From positions 1 through 57,276 of the forward strand of contig JAJHRE010000003.1 in assembly GCA_020832985.1 (NCBI GenBank): a DNA stretch of 57,276 bases, written 5' to 3'. This DNA comes from Desulfurococcaceae archaeon (GTDB lineage Archaea > Thermoproteota > Thermoprotei_A > Sulfolobales > NBVN01). The notes beneath the pieces were generated by a model that saw nothing but the letters and a program-made list of their open reading frames with translations, was not told the origin of the DNA and did no database searches. Below, piece after piece: positions 547-49,594 of the stretch; the first letter of the stretch is position 1, and the number at the start of each line of letters is the position of its first letter. A program made the translations under genes and the position numbers.

Positions 547-2136
547 GTGTTTGAAATAATACGTAAGGGTTACGTAGTAGATGTAGCTATAGTAGGTAGT
601 GGCTTAGCCGGTCTATCAACTACATACTTCCTAGACACACTCATGAGTGAGAGGGTTAGAGTAGCTATAATCTCTAAATCATCTCTAGGCTACGGTACAT
701 CAACCTACTACTCAGCAGGAGCTTTTAGATGTCCTGTTAATGGGTACTCCGTAGATGATTATATAAGGGATGTAGTTGAGGGTGGTAGGTATATTAATAA
801 GAGGTCTTTAGTTGAGTTAATAGCTTTGAAGTCTGTTAACACTATAAGGTCTTTAGAACGATTAGGTATTAGGTTTAAAGCTTCTAGAGGTACTTTAAGA
901 GTTGTTAGTGATGACCCGTTATTCCAGGGTAGGGAGTTAGTACTAGCTCTTAAGGATTACGTTGTTAAGAGACCTAACACAGTAGTTTTAGAGAATACGC
1001 ATATGTTAGACATAGTTAAATGTGGTGACGGTACGTTCAACACTGTATGTATCACTACTAACGGTGATTACGTAGTAATCACTAGTAAGGTAGTTGTCTT
1101 AGCTACTGGAGGTGCTGCTAACGTATACGTAAGGAGTGATAACCCTCAACAACTATCATGTGATGGTCATGGAGTATGTCTTAGGTTAGGACTACCTCTA
1201 ATTGATATGGAGTTCATACAGTTCTTCCCGTTAGGTATTGCAGAACCTGGGAGACCTACATTTATGATCCCATTCACTAAGGGTAGGTTAGTTAATAAGT
1301 TAGGTGAGGACATCATAGTTAAGTATGGGTTGGGGAGTCTAGGTAAGGCGATAATAGTTAACAGGGATAGACTGTCTAGGTATATGATGTTGGAGGTCAT
1401 GAAGGGGGACGGTGTTGACGGTACATTACTAATATATCCTGAGGAGAGTGATGAGGAGTTATCATCATTTGCTAATGAGTTGAGGAGGAGGTTAGGGTTA
1501 AGACCACCTATAAAGGTGTTACCAACAGCTCACTTCTCCATGGGTGGTGTTGAGGTAAGTGATGATTTAGAAACATCGATTAACGGACTCTACGTAGTTG
1601 GTGAGTTGGTAGGCGGTATCCACGGAGCTAATAGGTTAGGAGGTAATGCGTTAACCTCATGCATAGTTACTGCTGAGGTAGTAGCTAGGAGTATAACGGA
1701 CTACATAGAGAATAGGTTTAGAGGGAGTATTAGATTAAGTGATGAAGGTGTTAACCAAGTAGTTAATGAGTATAGACTTAGAGAAGGTAAGTACATACCC
1801 TCTGAAGTCAGGTCTAGAATCAGGAACTTAATGTGGTCTAAAGCAGGTGTTATAAGGAGTAATGACTCACTGAAGGAATGTATTGATGAGTTACTGAGTA
1901 TTCATGAAGAATTAGGTAAGGTCAGGATAGGGGGTCATGAAGAAGTTATTAAGTATTCAGAAATGCTAAACACACTACTCACATCAATAACTACTACATA
2001 CTCAGCACTACTAAGACGTGAGAGTAGGGGTGCACACTTCAGACTAGACTATCCAGAAGAAGACAGTAGTTGGGTTAAGAGTATAAGGATAACGTATTCA
2101 AACGGTAAATTCAATTATGAAATCTGTGAAAAATAG
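547..2136 (+). CDS. FAD-dependent oxidoreductase of the succinate dehydrogenase/fumarate reductase flavoprotein family, most like L-aspartate oxidase
   Basis: N-terminal dinucleotide-binding motif DVAIVGSGLAGLS. Also HFSMGGV and RESRGAHFRLDYPE, typical of the NadB/SdhA family. 529 aa. Confidence 0.7.
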   Translation: MFEIIRKGYVVDVAIVGSGLAGLSTTYFLDTLMSERVRVAIISKSSLGYGTSTYYSAGAFRCPVNGYSVDDYIRDVVEGGRYINKRSLVELIALKSVNTIRSLERLGIRFKASRGTLRVVSDDPLFQGRELVLALKDYVVKRPNTVVLENTHMLDIVKCGDGTFNTVCITTNGDYVVITSKVVVLATGGAANVYVRSDNPQQLSCDGHGVCLRLGLPLIDMEFIQFFPLGIAEPGRPTFMIPFTKGRLVNKLGEDIIVKYGLGSLGKAIIVNRDRLSRYMMLEVMKGDGVDGTLLIYPEESDEELSSFANELRRRLGLRPPIKVLPTAHFSMGGVEVSDDLETSINGLYVVGELVGGIHGANRLGGNALTSCIVTAEVVARSITDYIENRFRGSIRLSDEGVNQVVNEYRLREGKYIPSEVRSRIRNLMWSKAGVIRSNDSLKECIDELLSIHEELGKVRIGGHEEVIKYSEMLNTLLTSITTTYSALLRRESRGAHFRLDYPEEDSSWVKSIRITYSNGKFNYEICEK

Positions 2137-2148
2137 TATTTTAAACAT

Positions 2149-3533
2149 TTAATTGACGCTCTCAACAACTTTATCAGCAAGTACTAAACCACTACCTAAG
2201 GCATCATCATCCCAACTATACATTACATAACCTCTAACGACTGGATCGTAAACTGTAGCGTTATACCAAGTTATCTTGAAAGCTTTATCCTTAAGTAATC
2301 CCTCTATAACTGATTGGTTAAGGTCTAACCTACCATCACTTAAGTCCTTCTGAAGTGCTAGAGCTACTACACCGCTAACATGCGGTGCAGCGAATGAGGT
2401 ACCGCTTAAGTAGTAGTACTGACTTGGTACTGCCTTAATAGCTTGTAGTGGTGGATGTGCTGCTCCGTAAGGTGTGTACGGTAGTACTATATATGCTCCT
2501 GGAGCTAACACATCTAATCCCTGACCTTCAAGAGCTCTACTACTGAAGTTAGGTATGTATAATTGACCTTCAAGGTCTTCAGGAACATCAGCTAAACGCC
2601 ACCAACCATCAGTACTGAACTGACCTACCCAACCAACAGCACCTACAGATATCACTTCAGGATATGCTGCTGGGTAAACCATACCTTCAGTACCTTCATT
2701 ACCTGCAGCAGCTACTATGAAGACACCAACCTCTATAGCATAATCTATAACCTCCCTAACTAAGTCTGAAGGTGGTCCACCAACACTTAAACTAATTATT
2801 ACGGGGTTTACAATACCTGGTGGGTTAAGTACGTTACCACTTAACTTCTCTAACTCGAATAACTTAGCTATGTAGTAAATACCTGCAGCTAGGTCTGAAG
2901 TCCAACCCCAACCCTGATTACCTATTACCTTAACCGGTATTACCTTAACTCCTGGAGAGACTCCATCAACTACGTATAGATTGTAGACCTTAAACCCAAG
3001 TATTACTGCAGTGACTGCCATTCCATGACCATCACTATCAGATTCCCAAGCATTCTTATTCACAGATGCTTTAGGCCCTAAAACGCTGTAGCGAATTCCT
3101 CAGCTATACTGTCCTCGTTGAAGTAGTTCCTCCAATGTGGTTCTAACCCAGTATCTAGTACGGCTATGTAGACTCCAGAACCGTTTAACCCGTATACCTC
3201 ATGAACTGTGGGTATGTTAATCATATCTAAATTCCATGTAAGTATCCTCCCATCAAAACTACAGTTAGATGGTAATGACTCACTTAAAGGTCTTACTATA
3301 CCTGCCTTACTTACAGATTTAACATTACCTAACGTCTTAACTAAATCGTTTATTAACCCCTCACTAATTAATACTACTAACCCTCTAACCTCATCAAATC
3401 TATATACTACCTCACCACCTAACCTAGAAATTAGTTTTAGGTCATCATCACTTATATTACGGTTTAGTAAGACCTCTACTAATACGTAATTACTAGAATA
3501 CCTAATGTCTTGAGTGGATTCATAATGGATCAC
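2149..3533 (-). pseudogene. Subtilisin-like (S8) serine protease split into two ORFs by a frameshift (3078-3533 N-terminal part, 2149-3063 C-terminal part)
   Basis: The N-terminal ORF carries the catalytic Asp motif VLDTGL. The C-terminal ORF carries the His motif DGHG and the Ser motif GTSFAAPHVSG. The ORFs are in different frames (3533 mod 3 = 2, 3063 mod 3 = 0). The second frame is open only from 3099, so the shift lies in 3078-3099 at GCGTTTTAGGG. Confidence 0.75.
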
Positions 3534-3608
3534 GTTAACATTACGTAGTAGGGTTAATATCCTTTAAGTATATTAAGTCATTACTAAATCTATTAGACGG
3601 TAGTTTAT

Positions 3609-3899
3609 ATGGACGTATGTAGTGATAATACAGTATACATAGGTAGGAAGTTCTTCATGAGGTACGTATTAGCTGTTCTAATGAAGTTCAACGTCTTTAG
3701 ATGTAGTACTACAGTTATTAAGGCTAGAGGTAGTAATATATCTAGGGCTGTCTTAGTAGCTGAGGTGTCTAAGGACTTGATAGGCAGTATTAACTACTCC
3801 TCAGTAGATATAGGTAGTGTGAGTATAGAGTCTAGCGGTATTAGGAGGAGGGTATCAACTATTAAGATAGTTTTGTCTAGAGTTGGTAAGACTACCTAA
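3609..3899 (+). CDS. albA: Chromatin protein Alba (Sso10b family DNA/RNA-binding protein)
   Basis: VYIGRKFFMRYVLAV...VIKARGSNISRAVLVAEV...RRVSTIKIVL matches the Alba fold signature and is ~96 aa. Its 3' end overlaps the convergent AAA-Lon gene by 45 nt. Confidence 0.8.
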   Translation: MDVCSDNTVYIGRKFFMRYVLAVLMKFNVFRCSTTVIKARGSNISRAVLVAEVSKDLIGSINYSSVDIGSVSIESSGIRRRVSTIKIVLSRVGKTT

Positions 3900-20235: not shown

Positions 20236-21568
20236 CTACATCACCACTAAATCATTAAGCTAGAGTTTAAAACTTTACTACGTGTTATGCTGTGAGGTCA
20301 TTTAGTCATACCTAAGTTTATAACCTTACTAACTACTCTATCTATGGGTGGATATGCTAGCAAGTATAAAGAGAAGGCTTCAGTCATTATTCATAAGGTC
20401 ATACATAGAGTGTTCAGCATCTACTATCTCTAAAGCAGTCTCAAGGCTTCAGACATCTGTTACTGCGATGGGTGTTAACTCAGCGTTCTGTATGTTTAAG
20501 ATCTTGAAGAGTTTTAGAAAGGGTGGTAAACATAGTGTTGTGGGTGGAGGTAGGGATGGTGATAAGGTTTAAACTACTGAATAAAATTTAAAAGTTATGT
20601 TTTAGAATGTTAAGACTGCTCTCCCTCTAACCTCCCCCCTCTTAAGTTTCTCGATGGCTGTGTTAACCTCCTCAAATTTGAATAACTCTACACGTGGTTT
20701 TACCTTACCATCAGATACTAGTTTTAAACTCTGAAGTATGTCATTCCTTGTGAATCCTATATTACCTACTACCTTAATATCCTTTAATATCCAGTCTATC
20801 ACTGGTAGTGATAACTCACCTACTGGCAACCCTATAAGTACTAAAGTCCCTCCAGGCCTTAAGGATTCGTAGGCCTGCCTCATAGCTTTAAGGGATTCTA
20901 CCGTAGGTAATGCTACGTCAGCACCTCCTAAGTCCTTAATATATTTGACAGGGTCTTCCTTAGAAGCATTTACTACGTAGTCAGCACCTAACTCCTTAGC
21001 GAATTCTAACTTACTCTCAAGTACATCTACAGCAACTACCTTAGCACCTAACACCTTCGCTATCTGAACAGCGTTATGTCCTAAACCACCTATACCGAAG
21101 ACAGCGACTAAATCCCCGGGATATACCCTAGAAGCGAATGTAAGTGCTCTATAAGGTGTTGCTACAGCATCCGTAGCTGAAGTAGCTTCTGGGAACGGTA
21201 CGTTATCAGGGATTTTAAGTACGTGGGATGCTGGAGCTCTAACAAACTCAGCATAACCACCATCAACACTATAACCAGTATTTAACTGATTCTCACATAT
21301 ATTCTCACGACCTACTAAGCAATACCTACACCTACCGCAAGTCCACCAAAGCCATGATAACGCAACCCTATCACCAGGCTTTAAATGAGTAACACCATCA
21401 CCAACAACCTCAACAACACCTGCAACTTCATGACCAAGTATATGAGGTAGTGGTTTAGGTAATGGAATCTTACCCTCAATAATCTCAAGATCTGAATGAC
21501 ATATACCTACAGCCTTAACCCTAATGACGACCTCACCGAATCCAAGCTGTTACAGAATTGACGGTAGG

Positions 21569-21576
21569 TTTAAATA
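21569..21576 (+). promoter_or_regulatory. TATA box (TTTAAATA) of element A, about 25 nt upstream of the GC-rich RNA core
   Basis: ACAGAATTGACGGTAGGTTTAAATATC is conserved in copy B (ACAGATCTGATGGTAAGTTTAAATAGC) and copy C (ACAGTATTGATGGTTAAATAATGC). Confidence 0.55.
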
Positions 21577-21597
21577 TCTAAAATTATACAATTATTT

Positions 21598-21776
21598 AGA
21601 TCCTATGATCCGCACTGCGGTGAGGTGTACTGAGTAGTGATGAACCTATACCCTCAGATGGGAGCCTCATGGCGTTAGGCTCTACTGGGGCCCATGGAGT
21701 GTGGGTGAAGCTAATGAACCCACACCAAGGCCCAACCCCGTTAACGGAAATACAAGTACCGTTAGCGGGGAACGCT
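21598..21776 (+). ncRNA. Unclassified GC-rich structured RNA (core of element A) with a K-loop-like CUGA-GUA-GUGAUGA motif
   Basis: It is a GC island in an AT-rich genome. Proposed hairpins are CGCACTGCG, GAGGTGTA/TATACCCTC flanking the K-loop, GAGCCT/AGGCTC, GTGTGGGT/ACCCACAC and CCCCG...CGGGG. Differences from copy B preserve pairing (G-U versus G-C). Confidence 0.55.
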
Positions 21777-21998
21777 TAGGATCTGGGACCTCCTCAATAA
21801 CTAAAGGTTTACCGATTTCACGAAGTAATGCAGCTCTCATATAATCACAAGTAATTCTACACTAGAAAAATTATAAATTTTACAAATACTTAAGCATTTA
21901 TTAATAATAATTAAATTATAAATAACTTACATACTTACTTAAGTTTTAAGTTGAGAAACTATTTAAGGAGTCTTTAAATTACTTTAAGGGGTGTTGAT

Positions 21999-33617: not shown

Positions 33618-33777
33618 GTTAATACTTAAAGTAACAACTCATGAAATCAGAAGGTAATACTTAATAACACATACATAATAAAATTTATTAACGTCTTAAC
33701 TATACACAATAAAAAACCCCACGTATTATAATGCTAAGGTTAATTAGATCCGTAACACCGATATTATCAGGCGCCAA

Positions 33778-33869
33778 CCCACTACATGAAGACCTAATCG
33801 GTAGGTATAGGCTTACAGGGTTAAAGCCCTGTAGGCTTATGCTTACAGGTTAGGTCTTCATGTAGTGGG
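33778..33869. repeat. Perfect 20-bp inverted repeat enclosing a 52-nt interior with an X-X'-X arrangement (large hairpin, possibly an ncRNA)
   Basis: CCCACTACATGAAGACCTAA (33778-33797) is the exact reverse complement of TTAGGTCTTCATGTAGTGGG (33850-33869). In the interior, GCTTACAGGG-TTAAAG-CCCTGTAGGC-TTAT-GCTTACAGG allows two mutually exclusive hairpins. Confidence 0.7.
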
Positions 33870-33987
33870 GCGAGGCCTTCTCTAAAGTTCTCTAACTATT
33901 AAGTGGTAATACTAGTTGATGGTGTTGAGTTTTTGAATTATTTAGAGGTAGTTATTTTTAGAAGTCTTCAACTCATATTGTCGGGCT

Positions 33988-47314: not shown

Positions 47315-48439
47315 TTAAGCTATCTTCGAAGCTATAGCACTAGCTAGTTCGTAGGTCTTAGCTGAACCTCCTAAGTCAGGTGTTAATACCTTACCCTCAC
47401 TAAGCACCCTATAAACAGCATCATTAATTGCTCTAGCAGCTCTAATACATGAGTCATCACTGTATTTAACCCCTAACCACTCAAACATTAGAGCTGCTGA
47501 TAATATCATGGATATCGGATTAGCTATACCCTTACCAGCTATATCGAATGCAGCACCATGTATAGGTTCGAATATTGCGTACTCATAACCTAAGTTACAT
47601 GACGGTGCTAAGCCTAAACTACCAGCTACTTGAGCAGCTTCATCAGATAGTATATCACCGAACATGTTTGTAGTCACTATAACGTCGAAGTTCTGAGGCT
47701 TCCTAACTAGGTTAGCTGCACATGCGTCAACGTACTGTTCCTCGTAGGTTACGTCTGGGTAGTTTCTAGCTACGTCTCTACATGCCTTAGCGAATAACCC
47801 GCATGTATGTCTAAGTACGTTTGACTTATGTACAGCTGTTACCTTCTTTCTCCTCCCACTAGCTATCTTGAAAGCTACTTCAGCAACTCTTTTAGATGCT
47901 TCGTAGGTTATCACCCTCAACGCTACAGCAGTGTTATTACTAATGTAGAATTCCAACCCCTTATACAGGTCTTCAGTATTCTCCCTAACAACTACTAAAT
48001 CAATATCACCTCTTAAAGCCTGTGTATTCGGGTAAGACTTAACAGGCCTTATATTAGCGAATAGATCAAGCATTATCCTCAACCTAACAATGACGTCAGC
48101 TGAAGTCTCACCTACAGGTGCTTTAAGACATGTATGGGATTTCCTAATGATATCTACAGATGATTGAGGTAATGCCTGACCATACTTACTTAACGCCCCA
48201 TCACCAGCCTCAACAAACCTCACATCAACTCTAATACCGTAGACATCCACAACCTTCTTAATAACCTCTAAAGTAGCTGAGGCTATCTCAGGACCTATAC
48301 CATCACCAGGGATTAAAGATATCACATACACATCAGGTCTTAAATACCTACCCCCATACAAGTCCTTAAGAGCACCTAACACAGAGTACAGGTCAACCAC
48401 CTCAAAATACCTAGAAGCAAGTTTAAAATATCTTAACAT
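47315..48439 (-). CDS. Isopropylmalate/homoisocitrate/isocitrate dehydrogenase family enzyme; the true start is probably downstream of 48439
   Basis: IPGDGIGPEI, VVVRENTEDLY and NMFGDILSDEAAQVAGSLGLAPS are family signatures. The conserved domain begins ~40 aa after the annotated Met, and in-frame GTG codons precede VISLIPGDG. Confidence 0.8.
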   Translation of the reverse strand: MLRYFKLASRYFEVVDLYSVLGALKDLYGGRYLRPDVYVISLIPGDGIGPEIASATLEVIKKVVDVYGIRVDVRFVEAGDGALSKYGQALPQSSVDIIRKSHTCLKAPVGETSADVIVRLRIMLDLFANIRPVKSYPNTQALRGDIDLVVVRENTEDLYKGLEFYISNNTAVALRVITYEASKRVAEVAFKIASGRRKKVTAVHKSNVLRHTCGLFAKACRDVARNYPDVTYEEQYVDACAANLVRKPQNFDVIVTTNMFGDILSDEAAQVAGSLGLAPSCNLGYEYAIFEPIHGAAFDIAGKGIANPISMILSAALMFEWLGVKYSDDSCIRAARAINDAVYRVLSEGKVLTPDLGGSAKTYELASAIASKIA

Positions 48440-48542
48440 GTTAGAGGTTCTGTAAACCCTTAAGTATCGGTATTTAAGCTTTATCTGATTAGTTAATGAA
48501 GGTAGGAACTACATGCCAGTAGATAAAGATTTAATTGATATG

Positions 48543-48799
48543 AGCGTTTCCCCGCTTTCAATATCTACGGGGTTGGGCCTTGGTGTGGGTTCATTAGCTT
48601 CACCCACACCTCATGGGCCCTAGTCGAGCCTAACGCCATGAGGCTCCCATCTGAGGGTGTAGGTTCATCACTACTCAGTACACCTCACCGCAGTGCGGAT
48701 CATAGGGTCCAAGTAATTATGGATTCCTAAATATTTAAACATTACTCTAAGAACCAGATATCTACAGCTATTTAAACTTACCATCAGATCTGTAGCAGC
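48543..48799 (-). mobile_element. Copy B of the promoter-plus-structured-RNA module (inverted relative to copy A), intergenic
   Basis: The reverse complement aligns end to end with 21546-21776. The ~135-nt core has about 5 substitutions. It has an extra ~40 nt with a second TATA (minus-strand GTTTAAATAT, 48731-48740) and a shorter terminal hairpin loop. The K-loop motif is at 48665-48678. Confidence 0.75.
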
Positions 48800-48872: not shown

Positions 48873-49274
48873 GTGAGGTTAATGGTTAGGGAAGAAGCTT
48901 TACTATGGTTTAAACAGGGTGAGCATGATTTAAGGAAAGCATATAATGATTTAATCACTCAGGATTGGGATTCAGCTGCTTTTTGGTCTCAACAAGCTGC
49001 TGAGAAGGTGTTAAAGGCATTATTATTAAATGCTGGTATTACATTTAGAGGGCATAACCTCCTCGAAATAGCTGAGGTTATTGAGAAGGAATTAAGGTTA
49101 GAGGTTAAGGAGTTAATGAATGACCTTAGAGAACTTACCACACACTACATAATATCCAGGTACCCTAATGCGGCTAATGCATTACCCTACCAGCTCTATA
49201 CTTATGATAAAGCTAAAGATCTTGTTGAGAGGGCTAGGAGGGTGGTGGAGTGGGTAAGGCAGTATCTGCGTTAA
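48873..49274 (+). CDS. HEPN-domain protein (toxin-like partner of a HEPN-MNT pair)
   Basis: WFKQGEHDLRKA...SQQAAEKVLKALL...HNL...THYIISRYP is the classic archaeal HEPN (PF05168-type) pattern. Confidence 0.75.
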   Translation: MRLMVREEALLWFKQGEHDLRKAYNDLITQDWDSAAFWSQQAAEKVLKALLLNAGITFRGHNLLEIAEVIEKELRLEVKELMNDLRELTTHYIISRYPNAANALPYQLYTYDKAKDLVERARRVVEWVRQYLR

Positions 49275-49594
49275 GGTCTCAGGTTGAGGCTTTAGAGAGG
49301 GCTAGGAGGTTCGCAGCTAAGGTTAGGGAGAAGTGTAGGGTGCTCGGACTCGAAGTTATCGGTATTTACTTAGTAGGTAGTAGGGCTCGTGGGGATTACT
49401 TAATTGACAGTGATATCGATATAGTTGTAGTAGTTAGAGGTGTGAAGCATTTAAACATTATTGAGAGGTTAGAGTTATTTAAGGACTTACTAGAACCTCG
49501 TATAGATTTAAGGGTATATGATGTTGAGGAATGGGTCTGTAGTGAGAGTTCCTGGATAAGACAGTTAAGGAGTGAAGCTGTAGATATAGGTTAG
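49250..49594 (+). CDS. Minimal nucleotidyltransferase (MNT, antitoxin-like partner)
   Basis: IYLVGSRARGDYLIDSDIDIVVV is the GS-X9-DxD polymerase-beta-type NTase motif. It overlaps the HEPN gene by 25 nt. Confidence 0.75.
   Translation: MGKAVSALRSQVEALERARRFAAKVREKCRVLGLEVIGIYLVGSRARGDYLIDSDIDIVVVVRGVKHLNIIERLELFKDLLEPRIDLRVYDVEEWVCSESSWIRQLRSEAVDIG

What the first reader, a model, noticed from the sequence alone, without database searches (positions are those of the whole stretch)
21546..21776. Apparently mobile module carrying its own TATA promoter and a GC-rich structured RNA with a K-loop-like motif
The element encodes no protein. It has a conserved promoter block (ACAGAATTGACGGTAGGTTTAAATA), and ~25 nt downstream a ~175-nt GC-rich island that folds by eye into five hairpins. 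At 21630-21643 the sequence CUGA-gua-GUGAUGA is the arrangement of box D'/C' motifs that forms L7Ae-binding K-loops in archaeal sRNAs. It is flanked by a stem, GAGGTGTA/TATACCCTC. Weak outer C-like (AUGAUCC, 21604-21610) and D-like (CAGA, 12 nt after C') boxes give a degenerate C/D sRNA-like 5' domain, fused to a larger 3' domain. In AT-rich hyperthermophile genomes GC islands are established predictors of structural RNA genes. I see no convincing terminal inverted repeats and no transposase in the window, so the mobility mechanism is unknown. I cannot match it to any RNA family I know (not tRNA, SRP, RNase P or a standard C/D or H/ACA sRNA).
Basis: partly seen in the sequence, partly recalled or inferred. 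Interest (0 to 1): 0.8.

Follow-up and report, generated by a model that had tools for sequence, protein, structure and literature searches.

The report
Miniature IS607 transposon carrying TnpB guide-RNA scaffold
The 228-base insert is a protein-less miniature derivative of an archaeal IS607-family transposon that keeps only the transposon ends, a promoter and the structured RNA that normally guides the transposon's TnpB nuclease; this is a known kind of element, so it is a solved puzzle, not a new RNA class.

Summary
A 228-nt element (window 21548-21775, +) sits precisely inside a Zn-alcohol-dehydrogenase gene; four metagenome contigs carry the uninterrupted allele. A second copy lies at 48544-48797 (-). 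No third copy was found. Translating the element in six frames and searching proteins showed that its GC-rich part is the 3' end of a tnpB gene. Full-length relatives (L023, L019, others) have the same left and right ends and encode an IS607-type serine transposase plus a 432-aa TnpB. The element is therefore a miniature non-autonomous IS607 derivative. It retains the left end, a BRE/TATA promoter, a 25-nt block from inside tnpB, the last ~155 nt of tnpB and the right end. That is the region which supplies the TnpB guide RNA (omega/reRNA) in this superfamily. All 13 independent insertions lie immediately 3' of AGGC, a TAM-like motif. Helices H3, H4 and H5 show compensatory changes, and G·U pairs outnumber A·C, which favours a plus-strand RNA. 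The K-loop-like motif is real, but it occurs only in this mini-element lineage, at an internal deletion junction. It is absent from all parents and from two other mini-derivatives. Expression, TnpB binding and L7Ae binding are untested. This is a new member of a known kind.

The parts
21548..21775 (+). Copy A: a 228-nt miniature IS607-derived element inserted in the Zn-ADH gene. It is a deletion variant with a single TATA box.
   Evidence: Empty-site alignment; boundary regexes.
21544..21547 (+). Left-flank target / TAM-like motif. It reads AAGC here and AGGC in the uninterrupted allele.
   Evidence: AGGC lies 5' of the left end at 13 of 13 independent sites.
21548..21576 (+). Left end (TGTTACAGAATTGACGGTAGGTTTAAATA) with the TATA box at 21569-21576. 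It is homologous to the left end and tnpA promoter of full-length elements.
21598..21775 (+). Predicted RNA (omega/reRNA scaffold). The predicted start is about 22-24 nt after the TATA box; the scaffold runs to the right end.
   Evidence: Spacing read from the sequence; fold; homology to the tnpB 3' end; covariation.
21606..21625 (+). H1 block (TGATCCGCACTGCGGTGAGG; hairpin CCGC/GCGG at 21610-21620). It equals the tnpB codons for (V)IRTAVR and is retained in all three kinds of mini-derivative.
21622..21655 (+). H2 hairpin with the K-loop-like CUGA-GUA-GUGAUGA (21630-21643). The 31-nt segment 21624-21654 inside it replaces 117-120 nt of tnpB coding sequence in the parents.
21660..21683 (+). H3 hairpin (GAGCCU/AGGCUC). 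The U-A pair is C-G in the parents.
   Evidence: pair 31-41: UA in 9 sequences, CG in 4.
21688..21733 (+). H4 two-part hairpin (GGGCC...GGCCC around GUGUGGGU...ACCCACAC).
   Evidence: three pairs with changes on both sides.
21736..21770 (+). H5, the right-end hairpin (CCCCG-UUAACGG ... CCGUUAG-CGGGG). In the parents its 3' arm holds the tnpB stop codon and its loop holds the right subterminal inverted repeat.
21771..21775 (+). Right-end terminus AACGC (AAACGC in most copies).
21776..21795 (+). Inferred guide segment (TTAGGATCTGGGACCTCCTC): flanking ADH sequence that a read-through omega RNA would carry.
   Evidence: Inferred from the TnpB/omega-RNA architecture (PMC8612924, PMC10055086). There is no T-run terminator before the right end.
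21776..21840 (-). 5' fragment of the disrupted Zn-alcohol dehydrogenase gene.
20602..21547 (-). 3' fragment of the disrupted Zn-alcohol dehydrogenase gene.
48544..48797 (-). Copy B: a 254-nt element with two TATA boxes (48769-48777 and 48732-48740) and the K-loop-like motif at 48665-48678. It is intergenic, between the Iso_dh gene and the HEPN gene.

Best explanation
The element is a miniature, non-autonomous derivative (MITE/PATE-like) of an IS607-family insertion sequence of hyperthermophilic Crenarchaeota. The full-length element is about 1.97 kb. It runs left end, tnpA (serine transposase), tnpB (432 aa), right end. Internal deletions have removed tnpA and nearly all of tnpB. What remains is (i) the left end with its TATA box, (ii) in most copies a second BRE/TATA box, (iii) a 25-nt block from inside tnpB, and (iv) the last ~155 nt of tnpB plus the right end.

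Parts (iii) and (iv) are the region that in TnpB transposons is transcribed as the omega/reRNA scaffold. The RNA reads through the right end, so its 3' tail is the flanking DNA and acts as the guide.

Proposed working:
- An IS607 serine transposase made elsewhere in the genome excises and integrates the element via a circular intermediate, next to the motif AGGC.
- The element's own promoter makes a roughly 175-200-nt RNA.
- A TnpB made elsewhere binds this RNA and is guided to the empty version of that same insertion site (AGGC followed by the flank). It cuts there, so that recombinational repair restores the element. This is selfish retention or homing.

Shown here: the precise insertion, the shared ends, the homology to tnpB, the AGGC rule, the conserved helices and the plus-strand bias. 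Inferred: transcription, read-through into a guide, use by TnpB in trans, cleavage, and transposase action in trans.
For: - Precise insertion. The ADH rejoined across the insert is 336 aa, 99% identical over 100% of its length to intact proteins. The empty site is seen in L004-L007.
- Homology to tnpB. Six-frame peptides of the element hit 16 proteins, several labelled TnpB/OrfB transposase, through the plus-frame tail ...SDGSPMALGSTGAHEVWVKL.NPH.GPTPLTEIQ.
- Full-length relatives. In L019 the gene upstream of tnpB is an IS607 transposase: NF033518 at 190 bits against a cutoff of 110, and PDB 6dgc (ISC1926 TnpA) at 7e-36. L023-L025 carry both genes intact, and L023/L024 additionally show flanking DNA on both sides.
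- TnpB identity. The TnpB-like proteins pass TIGR01766 (55-61 bits, cutoff 32). 759 relatives score E <= 1e-10, most of them about 432 aa.
- Shared ends. The parents have the same ends: AGGC|TGTT(A/G)(C/T)AG..GTTTAAATA.. and ..CCGTTAGCGGGGAAACGC|. The homology blocks are mapped.
- Target motif. All 13 independent left flanks read AGGC.
- Convergent retention. Three kinds of mini-derivative keep the H1 block plus the 3' region and delete the middle. The parents have 117-120 nt there, against 31, 11 and 17 nt in the mini forms.
- Structure. 95.5% of cells are paired. Five pairs change on both sides (2 of 500 shuffles reach this), against at most 1 in the slid controls.
- Strand. G·U occupies 23 cells and A·C 10, and the RNA has the same sense as tnpB.
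- Conservation. The RNA core is 96% identical among copies, against 79% for the left end.
- Precedents. Protein-less PATEs that encode omega RNAs used in trans (PMC10055086); about 260-nt MITEs linked to IS607-type elements in Staphylothermus marinus (PMC2678158); an IS607 TnpB with TAM AGGAG (PMC11061315).
Against: - There are no RNA data, so transcription, RNA ends and read-through are unproven.
- No tnpA or tnpB lies in the 57-kb window, and I could not show that the same genome encodes them.
- Many related tnpB genes are frameshifted or truncated (L018, L019, L021, L022).
- This TnpB family lacks the zinc finger and has glycine at the canonical RuvC-II glutamate. Activity rests on analogy with the 'rearranged' clades in PMC10691335.
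- Copy A has lost the left subterminal repeat that full-length elements pair with a right-end repeat, so it may no longer be mobile.
- IS607 transposases are described as having minimal target specificity (PMC4058570). The strict AGGC rule seen here is therefore unexpected for the transposase alone.
- Part of the RNA-core conservation comes from ascertainment, because the 20-mer used for retrieval lies inside it.
Confidence: 0.85

Rival explanations
1. It is a stand-alone L7Ae-binding small RNA gene, a degenerate box C/D sRNA fused to a 3' domain, carried as cargo by an unknown mobile element.
For: The element has perfect D'-like CUGA and C'-like GUGAUGA boxes 3 nt apart, with 0.01 matches expected in the window. 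The motif is flanked by a stem. A CCUA/UGGG terminal pairing and weak outer boxes can be read from the sequence.
Against: The motif is absent from all full-length relatives, from the L020 mini-element and from the independent L027 mini-element. It lies exactly where 117-120 nt of tnpB coding sequence were deleted, and GUGAUGAA pre-exists in a parent as the codons for V-M-K. The outer boxes are AUGAUCC and CAGA, and the spacers are 18 nt and 11 nt. Rfam C/D models reach only E = 2.6-5. The two supposed guide segments pair with each other. RNAalifold prefers a fold in which CUGAG pairs with CUCAG. The rest of the RNA is homologous to tnpB plus the right end.
Confidence: 0.05
2. It is an inert deletion remnant. 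The mini-element is still moved by the transposase, or is only a fossil, and its RNA has no function. The conserved hairpins would then simply reflect recent common ancestry and the protein or RNA constraints of the parent.
For: Copies are only 9-13% diverged. Many related tnpB genes are broken. Copy A lacks the left subterminal repeat. Most compensatory changes separate parents from mini-elements. There are no expression data.
Against: The short form itself has spread to at least 8 loci with the same internal junctions. Two or three independent derivatives keep the same two non-contiguous RNA blocks. A BRE/TATA box that has no counterpart in the parents is conserved about 25 nt upstream of the RNA in both the K-loop-type and the L020-type elements. 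The RNA core is more conserved than the ends needed for transposition.
Confidence: 0.1
3. It is a palindrome-associated element (PATE) of the IS200/IS605 type, moved as single-stranded DNA by a Y1 HUH transposase. The hairpins would then be DNA signals.
For: It inserts 3' of a fixed tetranucleotide, without duplication and without terminal inverted repeats. A GC-rich hairpin lies 5-6 nt from the right end.
Against: The transposase next to the related tnpB genes is a serine recombinase, not a Y1 enzyme. The left end forms no significant hairpin as DNA (z from +0.8 to -0.9). The dinucleotide GC occurs at both junctions, as expected for a serine-recombinase overlap. G·U exceeds A·C, which points to RNA rather than DNA pairing.
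Confidence: 0.02

Closest known systems
PATE-like minimal IS200/IS605 elements that encode omega RNAs (Geobacillus stearothermophilus, Meers et al., PMC10055086; Haloquadratum PATEs, PMC3119063)
   Same: These are protein-less derivatives that keep the transposon ends and the TnpB guide-RNA region. They are multi-copy, and both transposase and TnpB are presumed to act in trans.
   Different: Those belong to Y1 (HUH) IS200/IS605 transposons with hairpin ends. This element derives from an IS607-type (serine transposase) element in a hyperthermophilic crenarchaeon. It has its own BRE/TATA promoter, and its scaffold has lost an internal 117-120-nt segment.
~260-nt MITEs of Staphylothermus marinus that resemble DNA upstream of its IS607-family ORFs (PMC2678158)
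   Same: A crenarchaeon of the same broad group, similar element size, linkage to IS607-type elements, and disruption of genes.
   Different: I could not compare the sequences, and my loop pattern did not hit any reference genome. Those elements were described as flanked by inverted repeats, and no RNA role was proposed for them.
IS607-family insertion sequences ISC1904 / ISC1926 (Sulfolobus) and MJ0014/MJ0013 (Methanocaldococcus)
   Same: The TnpA of the full-length relatives matches their solved catalytic domains (E from 7e-36 to 1e-23). The TnpB N-terminal part hits PF27234 'MJ0013'. There are no terminal inverted repeats and no duplication, and an overlap dinucleotide sits at the junctions.
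   Different: The window element has neither gene. The junction dinucleotide is GC, not GG, and every insertion lies next to AGGC, whereas IS607 is reported to have minimal target specificity (PMC4058570).
IS607 TnpB-reRNA systems such as ISFba1 (PMC11061315) and ISDra2 TnpB-omega RNA (PMC8612924, PMC10097598)
   Same: The RNA overlaps the 3' end of tnpB and runs to the right end, and the guide is expected from the 3' flank. The TAM-like motif lies 5' of the left end and is G-rich (AGGC here, AGGAG for ISFba1).
   Different: There is no detectable sequence similarity and no Rfam family. The associated TnpB lacks the zinc finger and has a rearranged RuvC-II motif. Nothing here has been tested biochemically.
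Archaeal box C'/D' K-loops bound by L7Ae
   Same: The CUGA-N3-GUGAUGA sequence matches the D'/C' consensus arrangement.
   Different: It is not conserved in the wider family, the terminal C and D boxes are degenerate, and the flanking 'guides' pair with each other. Binding has not been tested.

Membership tests
IS607-family insertion sequence (as a non-autonomous derivative) | Full-length members encode a serine transposase with an N-terminal HTH domain and a resolvase catalytic domain. | tested here: met
   L019 3385-4029: NF033518 at 190 bits (cutoff 110); Pfam HTH_17 plus Resolvase; PDB 6dgc at 7e-36. The same gene is present in L023-L025. It is present in relatives, not in the window.
IS607-family insertion sequence (as a non-autonomous derivative) | The derivative shares both ends with the autonomous element. 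| tested here: met
   Left end of about 50-60 nt and right end plus tnpB tail of about 155 nt, 72-86% identical to L018/L019 (left end) and 75-84% identical to L018/L019/L021/L022 (3' block). The same termini, TGTTACAG... and ...GGGGAAACGC, are seen in L023.
IS607-family insertion sequence (as a non-autonomous derivative) | No terminal inverted repeats, no target duplication, and the same overlap dinucleotide at both junctions. | tested here: met
   The empty and filled sites differ by exactly the element. GC precedes the left end and ends the right end in nearly all copies. One filled copy reads GT on the left (L017).
IS607-family insertion sequence (as a non-autonomous derivative) | Minimal target-sequence specificity (PMC4058570). 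| tested here: not met
   AGGC lies 5' of the left end at 13 of 13 independent sites. This is a difference from the type element. It may reflect TnpB TAM-linked retention.
IS607-family insertion sequence (as a non-autonomous derivative) | Transposition through a circular intermediate. | not testable with these tools
   This needs PCR or sequencing across a right-end/left-end junction.
TnpB omega RNA / reRNA | Encoded on the tnpB strand, overlapping the 3' end of the tnpB ORF and extending to the right end. | tested here: met
   The plus-frame translation of 21655-21750 aligns with the TnpB C-terminal tail. In the parents the tnpB stop codon lies in the 3' arm of H5.
TnpB omega RNA / reRNA | Conserved secondary structure supported by covariation. 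| tested here: met
   13 sequences, 95.5% of cells paired, 5 pairs with changes on both sides (2 of 500 shuffles reach this), at most 1 in the slid controls. G·U 23 cells against A·C 10. The set is small and its members are related, so the support is moderate.
TnpB omega RNA / reRNA | The 3' guide is transcribed from DNA flanking the right end. | not testable with these tools
   There are no RNA data. The sequence shows only that no oligo-T terminator precedes the right end.
TnpB omega RNA / reRNA | A fixed transposon-adjacent motif (TAM) 5' of the left end. | tested here: met
   AGGC at 13 of 13 sites. The pattern is shown; TAM function itself is not tested.
TnpB omega RNA / reRNA | Binds TnpB and directs DNA cleavage. 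| not testable with these tools
   This is a biochemical question.
MITE sensu stricto | Terminal inverted repeats and a target-site duplication. | tested here: not met
   There are no terminal repeats. Only a 19-nt subterminal inverted repeat is found in full-length L023, and its left arm is missing from copy A. There is no duplication. 'MITE' is used here only in the loose sense of a miniature non-autonomous element.
Archaeal box C/D sRNA | Terminal box C (RUGAUGA) and box D (CUGA) able to form a K-turn. | tested here: not met
   The boxes read AUGAUCC and CAGA.
Archaeal box C/D sRNA | Internal D'/C' boxes, two guides of about 12 nt, and a match to the family models. | tested here: not met
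   D' and C' are present, but the spacers are 18 nt and 11 nt and pair with each other. Rfam sR3 and sR14 score E = 2.6 and 5, at 10-11 bits against gathering scores of 38-41. The motif is absent from relatives.
IS200/IS605 PATE (Y1 HUH transposase) | Subterminal hairpins at both ends and an associated Y1 tnpA. | tested here: not met
   The left end has no significant DNA hairpin. The associated transposase is a serine recombinase.
IS110 bridge RNA | RNA loops complementary to a conserved target of about 11-14 nt and to the donor ends. | tested here: not met
   Flanks share only AGGC. No IS110-type recombinase is associated.

The most novel reading that the evidence does not exclude
The mini-element may be more than a passive remnant. 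It could be a streamlined, self-promoted 'guide cassette'. In it the roughly 120-nt protein-coding stretch inside the omega RNA scaffold has been replaced by a hairpin capped with a consensus D'/C' K-loop. Such a K-loop would recruit the archaeal K-turn protein L7Ae into a TnpB-omega RNP, or would stabilise the RNA at high temperature. Dispersed copies would then give one trans-acting TnpB many different guides, a natural CRISPR-like multi-guide state, and would link K-turn RNP biology to a transposon guide RNA.
Probability: 0.12. Interest if true: 0.65.

Novelty: new member of a known kind. Interest (0 to 1): 0.35.

Why it matters
This result removes an apparent 'new structured RNA class' from the list: the RNA is the guide-RNA scaffold of a TnpB transposon.

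Three points are of modest value to specialists.
1. It documents IS607-derived, protein-less guide-RNA elements in hyperthermophilic Crenarchaeota, with a strict AGGC adjacent motif.
2. Nature has made two or three independent 'mini-omega RNAs' that delete the same internal 117-120 nt. That is a ready-made map of which scaffold parts are dispensable for a compact (432-aa), presumably thermostable, zinc-finger-less TnpB.
3. It shows presence/absence polymorphism of an insertion that inactivates a metabolic gene. If the model is right, the inferred guide of that insertion targets the intact allele.

Tried and rejected
- Rfam. The gathering-threshold scan of the whole window gave no hit. The permissive scan of 21400-21900 gave only chance-level hits.
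- blastn of the element against phage and plasmid collections gave nothing.
- Viral-contig scans with the loop pattern, with the left-end pattern and with TnpB peptides gave nothing.
- Exact look-ups of three window proteins found them not on record.
- A regex screen for TnpB in the fetched loci found nothing, because this family has DVVGAINI rather than the usual motif.
- Pfam on genes near copies in L015 and L008 showed defence-type and ABC genes but no transposase.
- IS200/IS605 HUH model: rejected, because the left end has no hairpin and the transposase is a serine recombinase.
- IS110 bridge-RNA idea (prompted by PMC11213020): rejected, because the flanks share only 4 nt.
- Bulge-helix-bulge intron in the ADH mRNA: considered because the insert is 228 nt, a multiple of 3. 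Rejected, because the same element lies in intergenic DNA elsewhere and carries in-frame stops.
- A short ORF across the promoter/H1 region (35 aa in L011) is not conserved between copies.
- An alternative long-range fold of the 5' domain is not maintained in the parents, whereas H3 covaries.
- phmmer of the TnpB fragment against the PDB found no TnpB structure, because the family is too divergent.
Full report
**1. What is in the window**

- An AT-rich block ends in GTTTAAATA (21568-21576).
- About 22-24 nt further on begins a 178-nt GC-rich stretch: 54.5% GC, against 39.4% for the window.
- That stretch folds into five hairpins at -71.6 kcal/mol, z = -3.5. The opposite strand folds almost as well.
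- CTGAGTAGTGATGA lies at 21630-21643, between GAGGTGTA and TATACCCTC.
- The pattern CTGANNNRTGATGA occurs only in the two element copies, against 0.01 expected.

A second copy lies at 48544-48797 on the minus strand, 91% identical over 174 nt. Profile searches found no third copy. Rfam reports nothing at gathering thresholds and only chance-level hits otherwise.

**2. It is a precise insertion**

On the minus strand the element interrupts a Zn-dependent alcohol dehydrogenase gene.
- Joining the two gene fragments gives a 336-aa protein. It is 99% identical over its full length to intact proteins from hot-spring metagenomes.
- Four contigs with the intact gene (L004-L007; L004 is syntenic over 18 kb) read CCAGGC|TTAGG where the window reads CCAAGC[TGTTACAG...GGGGAACGC]TTAGG.
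- The insert is therefore 21548-21775, 228 nt. It has no target duplication and no terminal inverted repeat.

**3. More copies**

A 20-mer from the conserved core recovered 10 metagenome loci. Together with the two window copies these represent 7 independent insertion sites. The elements are 228-286 nt long and mostly intergenic. Many lie at contig ends, as expected for a repeat.
- Every copy starts TG(T/C)T(A/G)CAG and ends GGGGAA(A)(C/G)GC.
- Every copy is preceded by AGGC. The two exceptions among filled sites are AAGC in copy A and AGGT in L017.
- Most copies have two GTTTAAATA boxes. Copy A lacks the ~50 nt between them.

**4. Identity**

No transposase is present in the window. Because DNA-collection scans were exhausted, I translated the element in several frames and used the peptides as a protein query. 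Sixteen proteins matched. Several are labelled 'IS605 OrfB' or 'TnpB-related'. All matched through one plus-strand frame, which corresponds to their C-terminal tail ...ERDVVGAINIGLKYLSSDGSPMALGSTGAHEVWVKLVNPHQGPTPLTEIQVF....

Fetching their DNA gave the following.
- L018, L021 and L022 carry frameshifted or internally deleted tnpB genes.
- L019 carries a tnpA plus a truncated tnpB.
- L023-L025 carry both genes intact; in L023 the element, with DNA on both sides, spans 1842-3810, about 1.97 kb.

The upstream gene is an IS607-family serine transposase: NF033518 at 190 bits against a cutoff of 110, Pfam HTH_17 plus Resolvase, and PDB ISC1926 TnpA at 7e-36. The TnpB-like protein passes TIGR01766, and its N-terminal part hits Pfam 'MJ0013'.

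These elements have the same left end (AGGC|TGTTACAGAACTGAAGATAAGTTTAAATACCTGTGAATAC...) and the same right end (...CCGTTAGCGGGGAAACGC|) as the window element.

A blastn comparison defines three homology blocks between mini-element and parent:
- about 50-60 nt of the left end;
- a 25-nt block, TGATCCGCACTGCGGTGAGG, which is the codons for IRTAVR inside tnpB;
- the last ~155 nt, which is the tnpB tail plus the right end.

Between the last two blocks the parents have 117-120 nt that encode the RuvC-III motif. The window-type elements have 31 nt there instead.

**5. Why the RNA reading is still right, but as an omega RNA**

In TnpB transposons the guide RNA (omega/reRNA) is transcribed from the 3' end of tnpB through the right end. 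Its 3' tail, copied from the flank, is the guide (PMC8612924, PMC10055086). The retained blocks are exactly this region.

Two further mini-derivatives keep the same two blocks and delete the middle.
- L020 has an 11-nt linker and sits inside a HEPN gene. It may itself derive from the window type, since it shares the second TATA box.
- L027 has a 17-nt linker, a different left-end junction and no second TATA box, so it arose independently.

I aligned 9 mini-elements and 4 parents, with the variable middle segment excised from every sequence, and tested the hairpin model H1/H3/H4/H5.
- 95.5% of cells are paired.
- Five pairs have changes on both sides; only 2 of 500 shuffles reach that, and slid controls give at most 1.
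- Examples: H3 U-A to C-G; the H4 outer stem G-C to C-G and G-C to A-U in L021 (also seen in intact L023); H5 G-C to U-A.
- These changes occur inside coding sequence and alter amino acids (AH to TY, GP to GA). That argues for selection on the RNA.

G·U pairs (23 cells) outnumber A·C (10 cells), which favours the plus strand, the sense of tnpB.

The RNA core is 96% identical among independent copies, against 79% for the left end and promoters. Part of this is ascertainment from the 20-mer used for retrieval.

The sample is small and its members are related, so I rate the structural evidence as moderate, not strong.

**6. Promoter**

The first TATA box belongs to the left end, where in the parents it precedes tnpA. 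The second box (AGAGTAATGTTTAAATA) has a BRE-like AGTAAT upstream. It lies about 22-25 nt before GGACCCUAUGAUCC. It has no counterpart in the parents I fetched, but it is conserved in both the window-type and the L020-type elements. In copy A the two boxes have merged. A dedicated promoter for the scaffold is therefore plausible, but it is inferred from sequence only.

**7. The K-loop-like motif**

It matches the D'/C' consensus. However, it is absent from every parent, from L020 and from L027. It lies at the internal deletion junction, and part of it (GUGAUGAA) already exists in L023 as the codons for V-M-K. The outer boxes are degenerate, and the flanking 'guides' pair with each other. RNAalifold even prefers a fold in which CUGAG pairs with CUCAG, although that long-range fold is not kept in the parents. 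I conclude that the motif is a lineage-specific cap on the truncated helix. L7Ae binding is possible but untested, and it is not needed to explain the element.

**8. Mobility**

IS607 elements move through a circular intermediate, by serine-recombinase exchange at an overlap dinucleotide. They have no terminal inverted repeats and make no duplication (PMC4058570). Here GC is found at both junctions.

The full-length element has a 19-nt subterminal inverted repeat, TACCTGTGAATACTTGTAA / TTACAAATATTCACAGATA, 89% complementary. This is probably where the transposase binds. Its right arm lies in the H5 loop, which would explain why that loop varies by whole modules among copies. Copy A has lost the left arm and may be immobile.

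The invariant AGGC (13 of 13 sites) is stricter than the 'minimal specificity' reported for IS607. It fits a TAM: an IS607 TnpB with TAM AGGAG is known (PMC11061315). Whether the transposase or TnpB-driven retention imposes the AGGC rule cannot be decided here.

**9. The partner TnpB**

The family is large: 759 proteins at E <= 1e-10, most about 432 aa, from Ignisphaera and Desulfurococcaceae-type archaea. It has no zinc-finger cysteines and an invariant glycine at the canonical RuvC-II glutamate, while the RuvC-I and RuvC-III aspartates are invariant. This corresponds to the 'rearranged RuvC-II' TnpBs that Altae-Tran et al. predict to be active through a relocated glutamate (PMC10691335). Activity in this family is an inference.

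**10. Comparison and novelty**

Protein-less PATEs that encode omega RNAs for use in trans have been described in bacteria (PMC10055086). MITEs of about 260 nt linked to IS607-type elements were noted in Staphylothermus marinus in 2009 (PMC2678158). The present element is a new member of that kind. Its particular features are IS607 ancestry, its own TATA promoter, an internally shortened scaffold, a K-loop-like cap and an AGGC motif.

Confidence that it is an IS607-derived mini-element retaining the omega-RNA region is about 0.95. Confidence that the RNA is made and used by TnpB in trans is about 0.6. The overall figure of 0.85 refers to the explanation as stated, with its inferred steps marked as such.

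Noticed in passing
window 20602-21840 (-): The Zn-alcohol dehydrogenase gene is inactivated only by this insertion. Rejoined, it is 99% identical to intact alleles in several hot-spring metagenomes, so the population is polymorphic for the insertion. The left-flank motif has changed from AGGC to AAGC in the filled allele, which turns codon CCT (Pro) into CTT (Leu).
   Followed up: yes
window 47315-48544 (-): The right end of copy B lies 105 nt upstream of an isocitrate/isopropylmalate dehydrogenase gene (Pfam Iso_dh, 3.9e-97) and points toward it. Read-through from the element's promoter could reach that gene.
   Followed up: partly
window 48873-49594 (+); L020 1-921: Next to copy B is a HEPN plus nucleotidyltransferase gene pair (Pfam HEPN 2.7e-30, NTP_transf_2 6.6e-12), which looks like a toxin-antitoxin pair. 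In L020 a related mini-element is inserted inside a HEPN gene, after ...ATAGGC.
   Followed up: partly
window 33769-33878: A long near-perfect palindrome: two 52-nt arms, 81% complementary, with a 6-nt spacer. It lies between a TrkH-like gene and the next ORF. It is unrelated to the element studied here.
   Followed up: no
L023 1870-1888 and 3764-3782: The full-length IS607-type element has a 19-nt subterminal inverted repeat about 28 nt from each end, probably the transposase binding sites. The right arm sits in the loop of the right-end hairpin. The left arm is deleted in window copy A.
   Followed up: partly
alignment A4 (P0154, P0155, P0166 and others): The associated TnpB family (about 432 aa) has no zinc-finger cysteines and an invariant Gly where the RuvC-II Glu is expected (VVVGNINE). 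The RuvC-I and RuvC-III Asp residues are invariant. This is a 'rearranged' catalytic site, and the family is very abundant in hot-spring data (759 hits).
   Followed up: partly
L018 2076-3125 (-): A Zn-ADH next to a tnpB-only element is called as two ORFs (ADH_N, then ADH_zinc_N). It may be another disrupted ADH gene.
   Followed up: no
L015 864-5200: One mini-element copy lies in a region with AAA_15/AbiEii-like ATPase and GmrSD restriction-endonuclease genes and long stretches without ORFs. This looks like a defence-island setting.
   Followed up: no
window 21660-21683 (H3 loop): The H3 hairpin reads GCGUU-AGGC. That is the reverse complement of the right-end terminus AACGC followed by the target motif AGGC. 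It may be a coincidence, and its significance was not assessed.
   Followed up: no
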